This document shows, one piece after another, positions 6,856 through 11,255 of a stretch of 64,000 nt of DNA. The stretch is from Escherichia coli. Lineage in GTDB: Bacteria > Pseudomonadota > Gammaproteobacteria > Enterobacterales > Enterobacteriaceae. The notes beneath the pieces are model-generated. The model was not told the DNA's origin. It saw nothing but the letters and a program-made list of their open reading frames with translations, and did no database searches. A program made the translations under genes and the position numbers. Each line of letters begins with the position of its first letter. The first letter of the stretch is position 1. Location of the stretch: assembly GCF_003018115.1 (NCBI RefSeq), contig NZ_CP027457.1. The stretch is one strand, 5' to 3'.

Positions 6856-7059
6856 ATGACCAACAAAGAATCAACCAATACACCATCGCAAAAAACGAAC
6901 AGAGAGCACGAAAATATGGCGTTCGAGCATGAATCAGAAAGATTCGCACCATGCGCTTTTGTCCTTGATGAGTTTCTAAAAAAATATTCACGTTCTGAAC
7001 GGATGAAAATGGCAGCACAATACGGCCCCAACAAGCAAGATAATTGCCCACCAGCCTGA
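6856..7059 (+). CDS. Hypothetical small protein (67 aa), partner of RHH module 2
   Basis: ORF track; paralog of ORF 6178..6405. Confidence 0.5.
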   Translation: MTNKESTNTPSQKTNREHENMAFEHESERFAPCAFVLDEFLKKYSRSERMKMAAQYGPNKQDNCPPA

Positions 7060-7129
7060 TCGCGGTTATCATGCCCGGGCTTATGATTGTTGACACATAC
7101 GGCGCAGCGGGTTAATTGTTCAGAAAGGT

Positions 7130-7155
7130 GGCTCCATTTCGGGGCCGCTTTTTTT
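7130..7155 (+). terminator. Rho-independent terminator after the RHH modules
   Basis: Stem GGCTCC / GGGGCC (one G-T wobble) followed by GCTTTTTTT. Confidence 0.45.
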
Positions 7156-7180
7156 ATGTTCATCATTTGCCCTATATATG

Positions 7181-7387
7181 TTAAGCGGTCGTTCCGCGCG
7201 CTTCTTGTTCGCGTTCTTTCATCCATGCGATTACGTCTTCCTCATACCATCCGCGACGGCGCAAACCGACACGAAAACCCTGCGGGAATTCTCCGGCGTT
7301 GATCATGCTTTGCAGCGTGCTGTCTGCCTTAATGTGGATAAGTTTTTTTACTTCCTGGCGAAAGATGACTTTTTTGATTGCTTCCAT
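7181..7387 (-). CDS. alpA: AlpA-family phage transcriptional regulator (68 aa)
   Basis: ORF track; sequence ...STLQSMINAGEFPQGFRVGLRRRGWYEEDVIAWMKERE typical of AlpA/CP4-57-type regulators; GAGG SD. Confidence 0.8.
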   Translation of the reverse strand: MEAIKKVIFRQEVKKLIHIKADSTLQSMINAGEFPQGFRVGLRRRGWYEEDVIAWMKEREQEARGTTA

Positions 7388-7463
7388 CGTGATTTACCTC
7401 ATTAATCCGGTGTATTCCGGTGAGAAATACGGTAAATCATCGGATGCAGGGAAAAACAGTACT

Positions 7464-7493
7464 CACCGTTTTTAAACGGTATACACCGTTTTT
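7464..7493. promoter_or_regulatory. Direct repeats CACCGTTTTT (x2) with embedded palindrome ACCGTTTTTAAACGGT upstream of alpA
   Basis: Read directly from sequence in the alpA promoter region. Confidence 0.4.
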
Positions 7494-7520
7494 TATATTG
7501 ATGATTTGAAAGGGATTTAT

Positions 7521-7543
7521 AAAAAAAGCGGCATTTCTGCCGC
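7521..7543 (-). terminator. Rho-independent terminator after ORF 7555..7806
   Basis: Hairpin GCGGCAGAAATGCCGC followed by TTTTTTT on minus strand. Confidence 0.6.
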
Positions 7544-7554
7544 TTTCAGGATTG

Positions 7555-7806
7555 TTACCGCCATTTTTTTGGCCTGCCTCCGGTCTTCATGGATGCCGGA
7601 CGTACAACCTTATCAATACTTACAGCCAGATTTCTGGAAGCCCCACGGGATACCAGGAAATCTACTACCTGTTTTTTTGATGGGGCCGTCGTTCTGTCCT
7701 CCGGATCGTAGGTTGACCAAAATTCATGCTGAACCATCAGGGCCAGTTGCAGCCCGTCGCAATTGCATCTGAAATTTGTTTGCATCTTAACAGTTTCATT
7801 TTTCAA
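7555..7806 (-). CDS. Hypothetical protein (83 aa) between integrase and alpA
   Basis: ORF track; own terminator downstream. Confidence 0.5.
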   Translation of the reverse strand: MKNETVKMQTNFRCNCDGLQLALMVQHEFWSTYDPEDRTTAPSKKQVVDFLVSRGASRNLAVSIDKVVRPASMKTGGRPKKWR

Positions 7807-7883
7807 GGCCTCGTCGTTAAATGTGATGCAATTATACGACGGTTTTAAATGGTTTTCGTAGTTTTTACTGGTTTTCTGTACAG

Positions 7884-9125
7884 CTAAACGGCTCGGATAC
7901 CCCTTTTACCACTGGCGAGGGTTACGCCCGTCGCCGCAGCCTCGACAAATTCGCCCCACCAGCGCATAAGCACGATGCGTTTTTCTATGTAGTTGCTCCG
8001 GTTGTATGCCCGTCTGACTTCGTTGGTGTCGACGTGGGCAAGTGCGGCCTCTATTACGTCCGGCTCAAAGCCTTCTTCGTTCGCTGCTGTGCTGAATATG
8101 GCGCGTAATCCATGAGACACCAGCACGCCAGCGAATCCCATGCGTCGTAATGCTGCGTTAGCGGTCTGGCTGTTCATCGGCTGCTGTGGGTCTTTCAGAC
8201 TCGGGAAAACATAATCGCGGTGGTGGCTGATTGGTTTCATAGCCTCCAGCACTGCCATAGCCTGGTCACAAAGCGGGATAACGTGGTCGCGGCGCATCTT
8301 CATGCGTCCGGCGGGTATGGTCCAGCGTTGCGCTTCCATGTCGATTTCTTCCCAGCGTGCCGACGATGCTTCAACGGGACGGGTTACGGTCAGTAACTGC
8401 CATTCAATCAGTAATCTGGTCTGCCGTTCTGTTGCCGATACTGATAAAGCCTGCATAAGCTCCGGCAGCTGTTCGGGGCGGATTGTTGGCATATGTTTTT
8501 TTACAGGGGAGGGGAACGCCTTACGCACATTCATAGCCGGATTGGCATCAATCATCCCACTATTGGCGGCGTAATCCATTACCTCATTTATACGCTGTAA
8601 AACTCGCTTGAGCGTTTCCAGGTTGCCACGTTCCTTGATGGGGGTAAGCACCTCAACGAACCTGCGAGCGGTCAGGGTGTCTATTGGCGTGTTGCCGATG
8701 AACGGGAATACATATTTTTCCAGCGATCGCCAGATGTCTTTAATCGTATTGGGGGCCAGATTCTGGCTGATTTTCACCTGGTACCATGCTGTTGCCACAT
8801 TTTCGAACGTGTTCCCTTGTCTTCGGGCCTCTGTCTCTCTTTTTTGCCTCTCGTGGTCCTGCGGGTCAGTTCCGGCACGAATTAACGCCCTGTACTCGCT
8901 ACGGCGTTTTCTGGCATCAGCCAGGGAAACATCATCAAGCGATCCAAAACTCAGCAATATTCTTTTTTTGTCCGATGGTCGGTAGTAGGAAAATCTCCAG
9001 AGTTTTGATCCGGACGGTTTGATCAGGAGAAAAAGCCCTCCGCCGTCCTGTAGGGTGTATTCCTTTTCTGCTGGTCTGGCTGCTTTGATCTGTACTGTGG
9101 TTAATGGGGGTGTTTTTCTCGCCAT
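7884..9125 (-). CDS. int: P4-type tyrosine site-specific integrase (413 aa)
   Basis: ORF track; N-terminal ...LWRFSYYRP... region and C-terminal catalytic region (...HGLRAIFST..., ...RAYNRSNYIEKR...) typical of tRNA-targeting integrases. Confidence 0.9.
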   Translation of the reverse strand: MARKTPPLTTVQIKAARPAEKEYTLQDGGGLFLLIKPSGSKLWRFSYYRPSDKKRILLSFGSLDDVSLADARKRRSEYRALIRAGTDPQDHERQKRETEARRQGNTFENVATAWYQVKISQNLAPNTIKDIWRSLEKYVFPFIGNTPIDTLTARRFVEVLTPIKERGNLETLKRVLQRINEVMDYAANSGMIDANPAMNVRKAFPSPVKKHMPTIRPEQLPELMQALSVSATERQTRLLIEWQLLTVTRPVEASSARWEEIDMEAQRWTIPAGRMKMRRDHVIPLCDQAMAVLEAMKPISHHRDYVFPSLKDPQQPMNSQTANAALRRMGFAGVLVSHGLRAIFSTAANEEGFEPDVIEAALAHVDTNEVRRAYNRSNYIEKRIVLMRWWGEFVEAAATGVTLASGKRGIRAV

Positions 9126-9158
9126 ATGCTTATGATTCCAAACGAAAAAACAGGGTTT

Positions 9159-9210
9159 TAGTTATACGGCTTTAGTTATACGTCAGCCCGTATAACTAAA
9201 CGTATAACTA
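9159..9210. repeat. Two direct TAGTTATACG repeats followed by two inverted CGTATAACTA copies between int and tRNA-Pro
   Basis: Read directly from sequence; candidate integrase arm-type sites or int promoter operator. Confidence 0.6.
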
Positions 9211-9263
9211 AAAAATCCGGCTGATAGCTTATAAATCCGGTGATGTTCGGTGACTAAAAACCA

Positions 9264-9294
9264 TAAAAAAACCCGCCAATCAAGTAATTGGCGG
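9264..9294 (-). terminator. Rho-independent terminator downstream of tRNA-Pro
   Basis: Hairpin CCCGCCAAT / ATTGGCGGG followed by TTTTTTT on minus strand. Confidence 0.6.
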
Positions 9295-9343
9295 GCTATC
9301 CCTGTCTTATTCGATGATTTCCGGTGGTATCCGGTGGGCGATT

Positions 9344-9420
9344 TGGTCGGCACGAGAGGATTTGAACCTCCGACCCCCGACACCCCATGACGGTGCGCTA
9401 CCAGGCTGCGCTACGTGCCG
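9344..9420 (-). tRNA. proL: tRNA-Pro (anticodon GGG)
   Basis: 77-nt sequence CGGCACGTAGCGCAGCCTGGTAGCGCACCGTCATGGGGTGTCGGGGGTCGGAGGTTCAAATCCTCTCGTGCCGACCA on minus strand. Confidence 0.95.
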
Positions 9421-9494
9421 ACTCGTGGCTGTTAATACTACCGTTTTCCACACCGATTGCAAGTAAGATATTTCGCTAACTGATTTATAATTAA

Positions 9495-11255
9495 TCAGTT
9501 AGCGATAAAACGCTTCTCGTCTGTCAGCACTTGCAATAACAAACTTAACTGTGGTTTTTCATCTTTCACTCTTTCACCACGTAAGTTGTAAGTGCGGTAT
9601 TTACCGTTATTGTTCAGCACCAGCGTCTTTTTCGGGGTGGTAATTGCCAGCGTATCGTTATCCGCTGCGGTAACCCAGTAATGACGGCGTTGAGGGTTGA
9701 ACAAATCCTGACCTTGCGAATATTCGCTGGCAGGTGTGCTGACATGTAGCAGGCGTTGCATCAGCGTCGTCATCAGATCGGTATGATCAGTCAGCGCATT
9801 AATACGCTGCGCCGGCGTGCCTGGCCAGTGAATCACTAATGGCACCTGCAGATGACCGTGGGACCAGTCAAAGGTTTCTTCCTCTTCGCTCAGTGGAATA
9901 CCCCGACCGGCAGTGATAATCACTACCGTATTGTCCAGTTTGCCAGAATCACGCAGTGCATTGAGCACGCGGTTGATCTGGTCATCGACATTGCCTGCCG
10001 CCCGGCTATATTTCCGTGCAAAAGCCTGCTGATTGCTGTCGTCAATGTTAGTACCATTGAAAGAGACCCACGAGAACCAGCGGTTATCTTCTTGTGCGTA
10101 GCGGCCCAGCCAGTTGATCCACTGCGTGGCGGTCTGCTCGTCGGATTGGGTGCGTACGCTCGGCATCGAGAAATCTGACAACAATGCCTGGCGATACAGC
10201 GGGCTGGTAAAGCCATCTGATGAGAATAACCCCAGCTGATAGCCTTGCTGATTAAGCGCAGTAATTAATGCCGCAGGCGTACGGGTCGACAGAATGCCGT
10301 CCATATAGCTCGGCGAGATGCCATAGAACAGGCCAAAGATGCCGTTGTCTGTAGTGTTGCCGGAGCTCATATGGCGCGTGAACGAAATATTTTGCTCAGC
10401 AAAACCTGCCAGCGCAGGCATCTGCTTCTCGAAGCGTGAGTAGTTCAGGCCATCGACAGTAATCAACAGCACATTCTGCCCGGTGCCCATATCGCGATAG
10501 CGCAGTTCGCTTAACGGATACTGAACGGAAACGGCGTCTGGATTACCTTGCTCAATAAGACGGCGTTGATACTCCTGCGCATCAAGCAGGCCATGCTTCT
10601 CAAGAAAACGTCGCGCCGTCATCGGGTACGAAAGCGGCAGGTTAGCGCGCTGCATGGTGATCGGGCGATAGAAGTTGGCATCGGCCCAGATATACACCAC
10701 ATGCGAGGCGATAAAGGCGATAAATAAGAATGCGGCCAGCGGGCGCGCGAAGCGTCGACGACGCGTCAGGCTGCGCAGCTTTTGCCAGCTCCACGTCGCA
10801 AACACCAGTTCAAGCAATAAAATAACCGGAACGCTGATGAACATCAGCTGCCAGTCGCGCGCCATCTCATTTTCGTCTGGGTTGATAACCAGTTGCCAGA
10901 CGATGGGATTAAGATGGAGATGGAAACGAGTAAAGACTTCGCTATCGATCAGTAATAGCGTCATTCCCGCCGTTGCCAGAATGACGGACAAAAACCTCAT
11001 CAGCCTCTGGGAGCCGACGATAAAGGTCAGCGGGAAGAGGATCAGCAAGTAGGCGGCGAACACCAGGAAGCTGAAATGGCCGATGATGCTTACGTAGGAA
11101 TAAATGCGACCAGCAAGCGTGGTCGGCCAGTCGGCGATAAACAGGTAACGGCTGCCAATGACGAGCGAAAGCAGAATATTGAACAGTGCAAACCAGTGCC
11201 CCCAACTGACCATCTGGGAGACTTTTTCACGGTAGCGCTGACGATGAGTTACCAT
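9495..11255 (-). CDS. yejM: Inner-membrane protein YejM (PbgA/LapC)
   Basis: ORF track 586 aa; recognised E. coli protein and K-12 synteny. Confidence 0.9.
   Translation of the reverse strand: MVTHRQRYREKVSQMVSWGHWFALFNILLSLVIGSRYLFIADWPTTLAGRIYSYVSIIGHFSFLVFAAYLLILFPLTFIVGSQRLMRFLSVILATAGMTLLLIDSEVFTRFHLHLNPIVWQLVINPDENEMARDWQLMFISVPVILLLELVFATWSWQKLRSLTRRRRFARPLAAFLFIAFIASHVVYIWADANFYRPITMQRANLPLSYPMTARRFLEKHGLLDAQEYQRRLIEQGNPDAVSVQYPLSELRYRDMGTGQNVLLITVDGLNYSRFEKQMPALAGFAEQNISFTRHMSSGNTTDNGIFGLFYGISPSYMDGILSTRTPAALITALNQQGYQLGLFSSDGFTSPLYRQALLSDFSMPSVRTQSDEQTATQWINWLGRYAQEDNRWFSWVSFNGTNIDDSNQQAFARKYSRAAGNVDDQINRVLNALRDSGKLDNTVVIITAGRGIPLSEEEETFDWSHGHLQVPLVIHWPGTPAQRINALTDHTDLMTTLMQRLLHVSTPASEYSQGQDLFNPQRRHYWVTAADNDTLAITTPKKTLVLNNNGKYRTYNLRGERVKDEKPQLSLLLQVLTDEKRFIAN

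What the first reader, a model, noticed from the sequence alone, without database searches (positions are those of the whole stretch)
9147..9215. Arm-type repeat array between integrase and tRNA-Pro
Two direct TAGTTATACG copies followed by two inverted copies lie within 60 bp at the element/tRNA junction. They are candidate integrase or accessory-factor binding sites defining attR.
Basis: seen in the sequence. Interest (0 to 1): 0.35.

Follow-up and report, generated by a model that had tools for sequence, protein, structure and literature searches.

The report
Integrase arm-binding sites of a satellite
The four repeats are almost certainly docking sites for the N-terminal domain of the neighbouring integrase, laid out as in phage P4; this is an ordinary part of how such an island inserts into and leaves the tRNA-Pro gene, and the sites can be swapped together with that domain as one module.

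Summary
Four exact copies of a 12-nt unit, TTTAGTTATACG, lie at 9157-9168 and 9171-9182 (+) and at 9189-9200 and 9201-9212 (-). The 10-mer occurs nowhere else in the window. The array sits 31 nt upstream of the start codon of a P4-type integrase (7884-9125, -). It is about 130 bp inside a ~10 kb satellite-type island inserted at the 3' end of proL. It is not at the junction itself.

Empty proL sites lack the repeats. Near-identical elements carry two more tandem copies about 60 bp from the core at the far end. That far end lies outside this window.

Across 40+ related integrases the layout is conserved, while the repeat sequence falls into classes that follow the integrase N-terminal arm-binding domain. 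In a natural Pectobacterium recombinant, a ~350-bp block (the array plus int codons 1-85) and the far-arm repeats are replaced together. AlpA stays identical and the rest of Int stays 95-97% identical.

The GenBank record of phage P4 annotates the same layout as "attP arm sequence repeats". The array is therefore the int-proximal (P') set of integrase arm-type sites. Because of its position it probably also represses int. No binding experiment exists. This is a new member of a known kind, of modest interest.

The parts
9201..9212 (-). Arm-type site P'1, nearest the core. Reads TTTAGTTATACG on the int-sense strand.
9189..9200 (-). Arm-type site P'2, in tandem with P'1 at a 12-nt spacing.
   Evidence: The 12-nt tandem spacing is conserved in all motif classes and in both arms.
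9171..9182 (+). Arm-type site P'3, inverted relative to P'1 and P'2.
9157..9168 (+). Arm-type site P'4, inverted, 31 nt upstream of the int ATG.
7884..9125 (-). Integrase of 413 aa: Arm-DNA-bind_3 (residues 8-95, about nt 8841-9104), Phage_int_M and Phage_integrase domains. It is 33% identical to P4 Int over its full length.
9342..9358 (.). Core (crossover) region, TTTGGTCGGCACGAGAG, which is the 3' end of tRNA-Pro. An imperfect copy lies at the distal junction in related elements.
9344..9420 (-). tRNA-Pro(GGG), proL, the integration target.
9263..9297 (-). Intrinsic terminator carried by the element, downstream of proL and upstream of the array. It would insulate int from tRNA read-through.
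   Evidence: A hairpin at the equivalent position is conserved across the family.
9215..9337 (+). Second repeat family, (A/T)TCCGG(Y)(K)(R), at 9215-9223, 9235-9243, 9319-9327 and 9329-9337, between the core and the array. It may be an accessory-factor (RDF) site or a promoter element. Its role is unproven.
   Evidence: CCGGAT sits at the same position in P4.
7181..7387 (-). AlpA-family excisionase/regulator of 68 aa, the likely directionality factor.

Best explanation
The array is the int-proximal (P') set of arm-type binding sites of the attachment site of a ~10-kb PICI/P4-like satellite island integrated at proL. The integrase is of the heterobivalent type. Its N-terminal Arm-DNA-bind_3 domain binds the 12-nt TTTAGTTATACG units: four here and two more in tandem on the far arm. 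Its core-binding and catalytic domains act on the 17-bp core at the tRNA 3' end, about 130 bp away. Bridging arm and core, presumably across bent AT-rich spacers and with AlpA as directionality factor, would assemble the intasome for integration and excision. The array fills much of the 145-nt interval between an upstream terminator and the int start codon. Int bound there probably also represses its own gene, as reported for P4 and KplE1. Shown by the sequence data: the sites, their presence in both arms, their absence from the empty site, their co-variation with the Int N-domain, and the identical layout in P4. Inferred: the binding itself, intasome assembly and autoregulation.
For: (1) Int carries Arm-DNA-bind_3 (E=2.4e-23). 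N-domain relatives have solved structures, 3ju0 and 3jtz. (2) Near-identical E. coli elements have exactly six sites: four proximal and two tandem distal copies about 61 bp from the core. (3) The sites are absent from empty proL. (4) In 40+ loci from Escherichia, Pectobacterium, Brenneria, Pantoea, Citrobacter, Klebsiella and others the order is the same: tRNA, core, terminator, two direct plus one or two inverted 12-nt repeats, int ATG. The distal arm has two tandem copies followed by a ~60-70-bp AT-rich spacer and the core. (5) The motif classes (TAGYTATAC, GGGACTA, GGCATA, GGCACCT) match class-specific residues in the N-domain. (6) Natural swap: L014 (GGGACTA) versus L011 and L013 (TAGTTATAC). 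Nucleotide identity is 95-100% up to -95, falls to 45-78% from -94 to +255 (the array plus codons 1-85), and is 85-100% afterwards. At protein level the N-domain is 66-67% identical and the rest 95-97%. The distal arm, 8-9 kb away, switched motif as well. (7) Elimination: L011 (Pectobacterium) and the E. coli element use the same motif but share only Int and AlpA. AlpA is 71/71 identical between L013 and L014, which use different motifs. (8) The P4 record X51522 annotates 12-nt 'attP arm sequence repeats' in the same layout: two tandem, 53 bp, core, 112 bp, two tandem, then an inverted copy over the int ATG. (9) For autoregulation, there is a terminator at 9263-9297 and the ATG at 9125, so any dedicated promoter must overlap or precede the array. 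The P4 and KplE1 precedent is cited in PMC2951348.
Against: There are no binding or genetic data for this element. The distal arm of this particular copy lies outside the window and is inferred from elements 98-100% identical in the int/att module. No sigma-70 consensus promoter was found, so the regulatory part rests on geometry and analogy. The array and the N-domain coding region are adjacent, so part of their co-variation could be simple linkage; the unlinked distal arm and the AlpA and gene-content comparisons are what carry the argument. Position 4 of the motif (T or C) varies within single arrays (L005-L007), so the uniform C in the 83%-identical E. coli variant is weak evidence.
Confidence: 0.85

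Rival explanations
1. The repeats are binding sites or an operator for the AlpA-family excisionase/regulator, not for the integrase.
For: AlpA-family proteins act as directionality factors and regulators, and alpA lies just downstream of int. AlpA was required for excision of a different E. coli PICI (PMC11773190).
Against: AlpA is 71/71 identical in L013 (TAGTTATAC) and L014 (GGGACTA), and 70/71 identical in L011. The GGCATA-class elements keep the same array layout, yet tblastn with the window's AlpA found no homologue in the 4.5 kb from their int start. The motif occurs on both arms.
Confidence: 0.05
2. The inverted array works as an RNA (or cruciform) hairpin in the int leader, acting as an attenuator, terminator or translational control element. 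The repeats would then matter as a structure, not as protein sites.
For: The int-sense transcript of 9126-9230 folds into a ~25-bp hairpin of -33 kcal/mol (z = -5.1). In the window and in E. albertii a T-run follows it.
Against: The T-run is absent in the 83%-identical variant and in Pectobacterium, where the array abuts the ATG. Many relatives have only a 2+1 arrangement. The distal arm carries tandem copies that cannot form a hairpin. The terminator scan did not flag the array. Hairpin potential follows automatically from inverted protein sites.
Confidence: 0.05
3. The repeats are sites for a host nucleoid protein or for another regulator encoded by the element.
For: The arms are AT-rich and host bending proteins are expected to act there (established knowledge from lambda; not tested here).
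Against: The motif differs between elements living in the same genus (Pectobacterium L011, L013 and L014). It is the same in E. coli and Pectobacterium elements that share no proteins other than Int and AlpA.
Confidence: 0.03

Closest known systems
Satellite phage P4 attP arm sequence repeats (annotated in GenBank X51522)
   Same: The units are 12 nt. There are two tandem copies on the int-distal arm about 50-60 bp from the core, and two tandem copies on the int-proximal arm 110-130 bp from the core, followed by inverted copy or copies next to or over the int start. The integrase is of the DUF4102/Arm-DNA-bind_3 type and the target is a tRNA 3' end. A CCGGAT box lies just upstream of the first proximal site.
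   Different: The repeat sequence differs: P4 has A(T/A)TGGGGGCATA and this element has TTTAGTTATACG. This element has two inverted copies where P4 has one. The integrases are only 33% identical. The target is proL. The element's cargo is unrelated to P4's sid/psu/delta module.
KplE1/HK620 attL, where IntS P' arm-type sites and TorI sites overlap the intS promoter (Panis et al. 2010, PMC2951348)
   Same: The int promoter region is embedded in the int-proximal arm next to a tRNA gene. Integrase arm sites lie between the core and the int ATG. That paper reports negative autoregulation of int by Int and by the RDF.
   Different: The site sequences and numbers differ. In KplE1, binding and regulation were shown experimentally; here they are inferred. 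RDF sites are not identified here.
Lambda Int arm-type sites P1, P2 and P'1-P'3
   Same: It is the paradigm of a heterobivalent integrase: an N-terminal domain binds arm repeats on both sides of the core, and the arm repeats differ in sequence from the core sites (summarised in PMC2951348 and PMC8138268).
   Different: Lambda uses a different arm-binding Pfam family and has no inverted pair next to int. The lambda int promoter does not lie in the arm.

Membership tests
Arm-type sites of heterobivalent tyrosine integrases (P4 cluster / IntSXT subgroup) | The cognate integrase has an N-terminal arm-binding domain. | tested here: met
   PF13356 Arm-DNA-bind_3 covers residues 8-95, E=2.4e-23. PDB N-domain relatives 3ju0 and 3jtz.
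Arm-type sites of heterobivalent tyrosine integrases (P4 cluster / IntSXT subgroup) | The repeats differ from the core sequence and occur on both arms flanking the core. | tested here: met
   The proximal arm is in the window. The distal arm was seen in four E. coli elements 83-100% identical in the int/att module and in Pectobacterium, Sodalis and E. albertii relatives. The distal end of this copy lies outside the window.
Arm-type sites of heterobivalent tyrosine integrases (P4 cluster / IntSXT subgroup) | The repeats belong to the element and are absent from the unoccupied attB. | tested here: met
   The K-12-type empty site lacks them. 451 of 5,426 genomes carry the arm region.
Arm-type sites of heterobivalent tyrosine integrases (P4 cluster / IntSXT subgroup) | The repeat sequence co-varies with the arm-binding domain rather than with other proteins. 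| tested here: met
   The mosaic block runs from -94 to +255, and the distal arm is swapped in L014 relative to L011 and L013. AlpA is identical. Int and AlpA are the only proteins shared between genera using the same motif.
Arm-type sites of heterobivalent tyrosine integrases (P4 cluster / IntSXT subgroup) | The Int N-domain binds the repeats directly, and they are required for recombination. | not testable with these tools
   This needs EMSA or footprinting and att-site mutagenesis.
P4-type attP layout | Tandem 12-nt pairs on both arms, with inverted copy or copies at the int start. | tested here: met
   Direct comparison with the features annotated in X51522.
Excisionase (AlpA/Xis) binding sites | The site sequence tracks the RDF. 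| tested here: not met
   Identical AlpA proteins accompany different motifs. With the window's AlpA as tblastn query (the 4.5 kb from the int start searched), no homologue was found in GGCATA-class loci, which have the same layout.
Intrinsic terminator / attenuator | A stable hairpin directly followed by a conserved U-tract. | tested here: not met
   The hairpin is present, but the scan does not flag it and the T-run is not conserved among relatives.

The most novel reading that the evidence does not exclude
In this integrase family the arm-binding domain and both sets of arm repeats behave as an exchangeable 'arm-code' cassette. At least four codes (TAGYTATAC, GGGACTA, GGCATA, GGCACCT) sit on otherwise near-identical integrases. 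Three of them target the same proL core; in this sample GGCACCT was seen only at ssrA. Switching code could make satellites that share one attB, and that are found in tandem there (L014, L015, L037), orthogonal. Each would then excise alone, without cross-recombination with its neighbour.
Probability: 0.35. Interest if true: 0.55.

Novelty: new member of a known kind. Interest (0 to 1): 0.3.

Why it matters
The result fixes the anatomy of the attachment site of a satellite-type island found at proL in about 8% of complete E. coli genomes. That anatomy is a core at the tRNA 3' end, a P' arm with four sites, and a P arm with two. In practice the 12-mers help to delimit these islands and to tell tandem copies apart. 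The class-specific residues of the N-domain give a small and directly testable recognition code for DUF4102-type arm-binding domains, whose solved structures found here (3ju0, 3jtz) are N-domain fragments of about 90-110 residues. The biology itself, arm-type sites with probable int autoregulation, is textbook and already annotated for P4.

Tried and rejected
(1) The sigma-70 promoter scan of 9050-9500 found nothing. By eye, the best candidates are weak: TAGTCA-17-TATAAG upstream of the array, or a P4-like position with the -10 at the junction of sites 1 and 2. I therefore do not claim a promoter.

(2) I first read the uniform T-to-C change in all six sites of the 83%-identical E. coli variant as co-evolution. 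I downgraded this because T and C co-occur at that position within single arrays elsewhere.

(3) The second integrase, in tandem after L014, could have provided a second swap test, but it is truncated at 53 aa.

(4) Strain 2012C-4431, with an arm 100% identical to the window's, is not the source of the window. Its element has a primase where the window has a RepA helicase. The distal end of this exact copy therefore could not be read.

(5) The hairpin/terminator reading was rejected as the main function.

(6) Piazzolla et al. 2006 (P4 Int/Vis regulation) is not held in the library. A search for papers citing Pierson on the P4 attP arms also found nothing. What I say about P4 regulation comes second-hand from PMC2951348.

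(7) The satellite papers found by the search for 'arm-type', integrase, AlpA and satellite contain no occurrence of 'arm-type', so I found no prior description of these sites for this element family.

Full report
**Observation.** TAGTTATACG occurs four times in the 64-kb window, and all four copies are exact. They start at 9159 and 9173 on the + strand and at 9189 and 9201 on the - strand. No other match appears even with one mismatch allowed, against about 1.8 expected by chance across the whole window. The repeat finder extends the unit to 12-13 nt, (T)TTTAGTTATACG. The sites are 9157-9168, 9171-9182, 9189-9200 and 9201-9212. One pair is spaced 12 nt and the other 14 nt, and the inner arms are separated by 6 nt.

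**Context.**
- The only tRNA in the window is tRNA-Pro(GGG) at 9344-9420 on the - strand. It is followed by yejM, so this is the proL locus.
- A 413-aa ORF at 7884-9125 (-) carries Arm-DNA-bind_3, Phage_int_M and Phage_integrase domains. It is 33% identical to P4 Int over its whole length.
- Homology with element-free E. coli starts at 9342.
- Comparing both junctions in sister elements gives a core of about 17 bp, TTTGGTCGGCACGAGAG, which is the tRNA 3' end. An imperfect copy sits at the far junction next to yejO.
- Reading in the int direction, the order is: proL, core (9358-9342), terminator hairpin (9297-9263), four repeats (9212-9157), 31 nt, int ATG (9125). The array is therefore about 130 bp inside the element, not at the junction.
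- The element is a ~10-kb satellite-type island. It encodes a ClpP-like protease/major-capsid fusion, a RepA-type helicase or a primase, an Icd-like protein, AlpA and Int.
- The window begins about 1.3 kb inside the element, so its far end is not in the window.
- 451 of 5,426 complete E. coli genomes carry this arm region, typically at two places per genome.

- The empty site lacks the repeats.
- The far end carries them. In elements whose proximal arm is 99-100% identical to the window, there are exactly six sites in 16-40 kb: four proximal and two tandem distal copies. The distal sequence is CGTATAACTAAACGTATAACTAAAA, about 61 bp from the core.
- The 83%-identical E. coli variant has the same arrangement with TAGCTAYACG at both ends.

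**Family-wide anatomy.** A scan of one genome per species found 44 loci encoding relatives. In Escherichia, Edwardsiella, Buttiauxella, Pectobacterium, Brenneria, Pantoea, Erwinia, Citrobacter, Klebsiella, Kluyvera, Sodalis and others the upstream order is conserved. It runs: tRNA-Pro (or tmRNA), core, terminator hairpin, two direct plus one or two inverted 12-nt repeats, int ATG. Where the far end is present it has two tandem copies 12 nt apart, a ~60-70-bp AT-rich spacer, and then the core.

The repeat sequence falls into four classes:
- TTTAG(T/C)TATAC
- TTTGGGACTA
- TTTAGGCATA
- TTTAGGCACCT

Each class goes with its own residues in the N-terminal domain: EKEY(T/S)LQDG, DKE(L/I)(S/T)L(H/T)DG, and ..LYDG(D/S)GLE for the two GGCA classes.

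**Which protein reads the repeats.** Three comparisons settle this as far as sequence can.
- *A natural recombinant.* Pectobacterium versatile L014 (GGGACTA) was compared with P. aroidearum L011 and P. fontis L013 (TAGTTATAC). Nucleotide identity is 95-100% up to -95 from the ATG. It drops to 45-78% from -94 to +255, which covers the array plus int codons 1-85. It returns to 85-100% for the rest of int. At protein level the N-domain is 66-67% identical and the remainder 95-97%.
- *The unlinked far arm switched too.* It lies 8-9 kb away. Homology between L011 and L014 (about 90-93% along most of the element) stops just before the distal repeats. These are TAGTTATAC in L011 and GGGACTA in L014.
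- *Elimination.* AlpA is 71/71 identical in L013 and L014, and 70/71 identical in L011. L011 and the E. coli element use the same motif, yet the only proteins they share are Int (71%) and AlpA (53%).

A host factor is excluded because the motif differs within Pectobacterium and is shared between genera. Relatives of that domain have solved structures, 3ju0 and 3jtz.

**Comparison with what is known.** The GenBank record of satellite phage P4 (X51522) annotates 12-nt 'attP arm sequence repeats' in the same layout:
- two tandem copies (4151-4174);
- 53 bp of spacer;
- the core (4078-4097);
- 112 bp of spacer;
- two tandem copies (3942-3965);
- an inverted copy over the int ATG (3915-3926).

The P4 unit ATTGGGGGCATA resembles the GGCATA class found here. 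A CCGGAT box precedes the first proximal site in both P4 and the window.

Integrases with a DUF4102 N-domain form the IntSXT subgroup, which includes the P4 cluster that targets tRNA genes (PMC8138268). For KplE1, and as cited there for P4, Int bound to arm sites that overlap its own promoter represses int (PMC2951348).

Here, any dedicated int promoter must lie between the terminator (9263) and the ATG (9125). The array occupies 56 of those 137 nt. In Pectobacterium the array reaches the ATG, and a further copy lies in codons 3-6. Autoregulation is therefore likely but not shown, and no consensus promoter was found.

**Rivals.**
- *AlpA sites:* contradicted by the identical AlpA proteins that accompany different motifs.
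- *A leader hairpin or attenuator:* the array would fold at -33 kcal/mol. However, the following T-run is not conserved, many relatives have a 2+1 layout, and the distal tandem copies cannot pair.
- *Host or other element proteins:* excluded by the gene-content comparison.

**Verdict.** The array is the P' arm-type site set of a P4-type integrase. By the lambda convention this junction is attL. It is 'right' only in window coordinates. This is a new member of a known kind.

The most interesting by-product is the clean cassette exchange of arm-binding domain plus both arm arrays. It gives several arm codes at the same proL core, and tandem satellites with different codes were seen in L014, L015 and L037. 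Whether this gives functional orthogonality is untested.

Noticed in passing
window 9263-9297 (-): The element brings its own intrinsic terminator immediately downstream of proL. The native bidirectional terminator of the empty site stays at the far junction next to yejO. A hairpin at the equivalent position is conserved across the whole integrase family.
   Followed up: partly
window 9215-9223, 9235-9243, 9319-9327, 9329-9337: A second repeat family, (A/T)TCCGG(Y)(K)(R), lies between the core and the arm array. Two copies abut the core and two abut the array. Pectobacterium elements have ACCGGAAA-like boxes at these positions. GGCATA-class elements have TGAAnTCCA there, and tblastn with the window's AlpA found no homologue in the 4.5 kb from their int start. 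P4 has CCGGAT at the same position. These boxes are candidate RDF (AlpA) sites or promoter elements.
   Followed up: partly
L013 9461-9823 and int at 10001 (Pectobacterium fontis), compared with L011: An integrase 95-97% identical to the proL-targeting one of L011 sits next to the tmRNA gene (ssrA) instead of tRNA-Pro, with the same P' arm. The two targets share GGTTCAAATCC in the T-arm. This is either use of a secondary site or a recent switch of target.
   Followed up: partly
L009-L013 and L038, int codons 3-6: In Pectobacterium the inverted copies run up to the ATG, and a further copy, CGTATAACTAC, lies inside the coding sequence where it encodes R-I-T-T. The protein N-terminus and its own binding site therefore overlap.
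   Followed up: no
L014 +8420 to +8770; L015 and L037 upstream of int: Satellites sit in tandem at one proL site, with different arm codes. L014 (GGGACTA) is followed by a decayed GGCATA-class element whose int is truncated at 53 aa. L015 and L037 show the distal arm of a neighbouring element just upstream of int.
   Followed up: partly
L003 2939-2975; L004 4325-4400 (distal end, inside the arm sites): Another short repeat, TATCCGTTAT(C/G)A, occurs in two or three copies, some inverted, just inside the distal arm of the E. coli elements. Its function is unknown; it could be an operator, a packaging site or an origin.
   Followed up: no
window 5736-7226 (-): A 496-aa ORF has no hit in Pfam, PADLOC or PHROGs, and its translation is rich in Ser, Arg and Cys and does not look like a protein. 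It runs antisense to small + strand genes (a YlcI/YnfO-like gene and a hypothetical gene). In the window these appear duplicated, with about 590 bp extra relative to strain 95-3322. The ORF is probably spurious.
   Followed up: partly
window 1-9342 compared with L002, L003, L004 and L050: The same int/att module (98-100% identical) is joined to different replication modules, either a RepA-type helicase or a DUF5906/primase, and to different accessory genes in different strains. The island is a mosaic with a conserved ClpP-protease/major-capsid fusion gene at the far end.
   Followed up: partly
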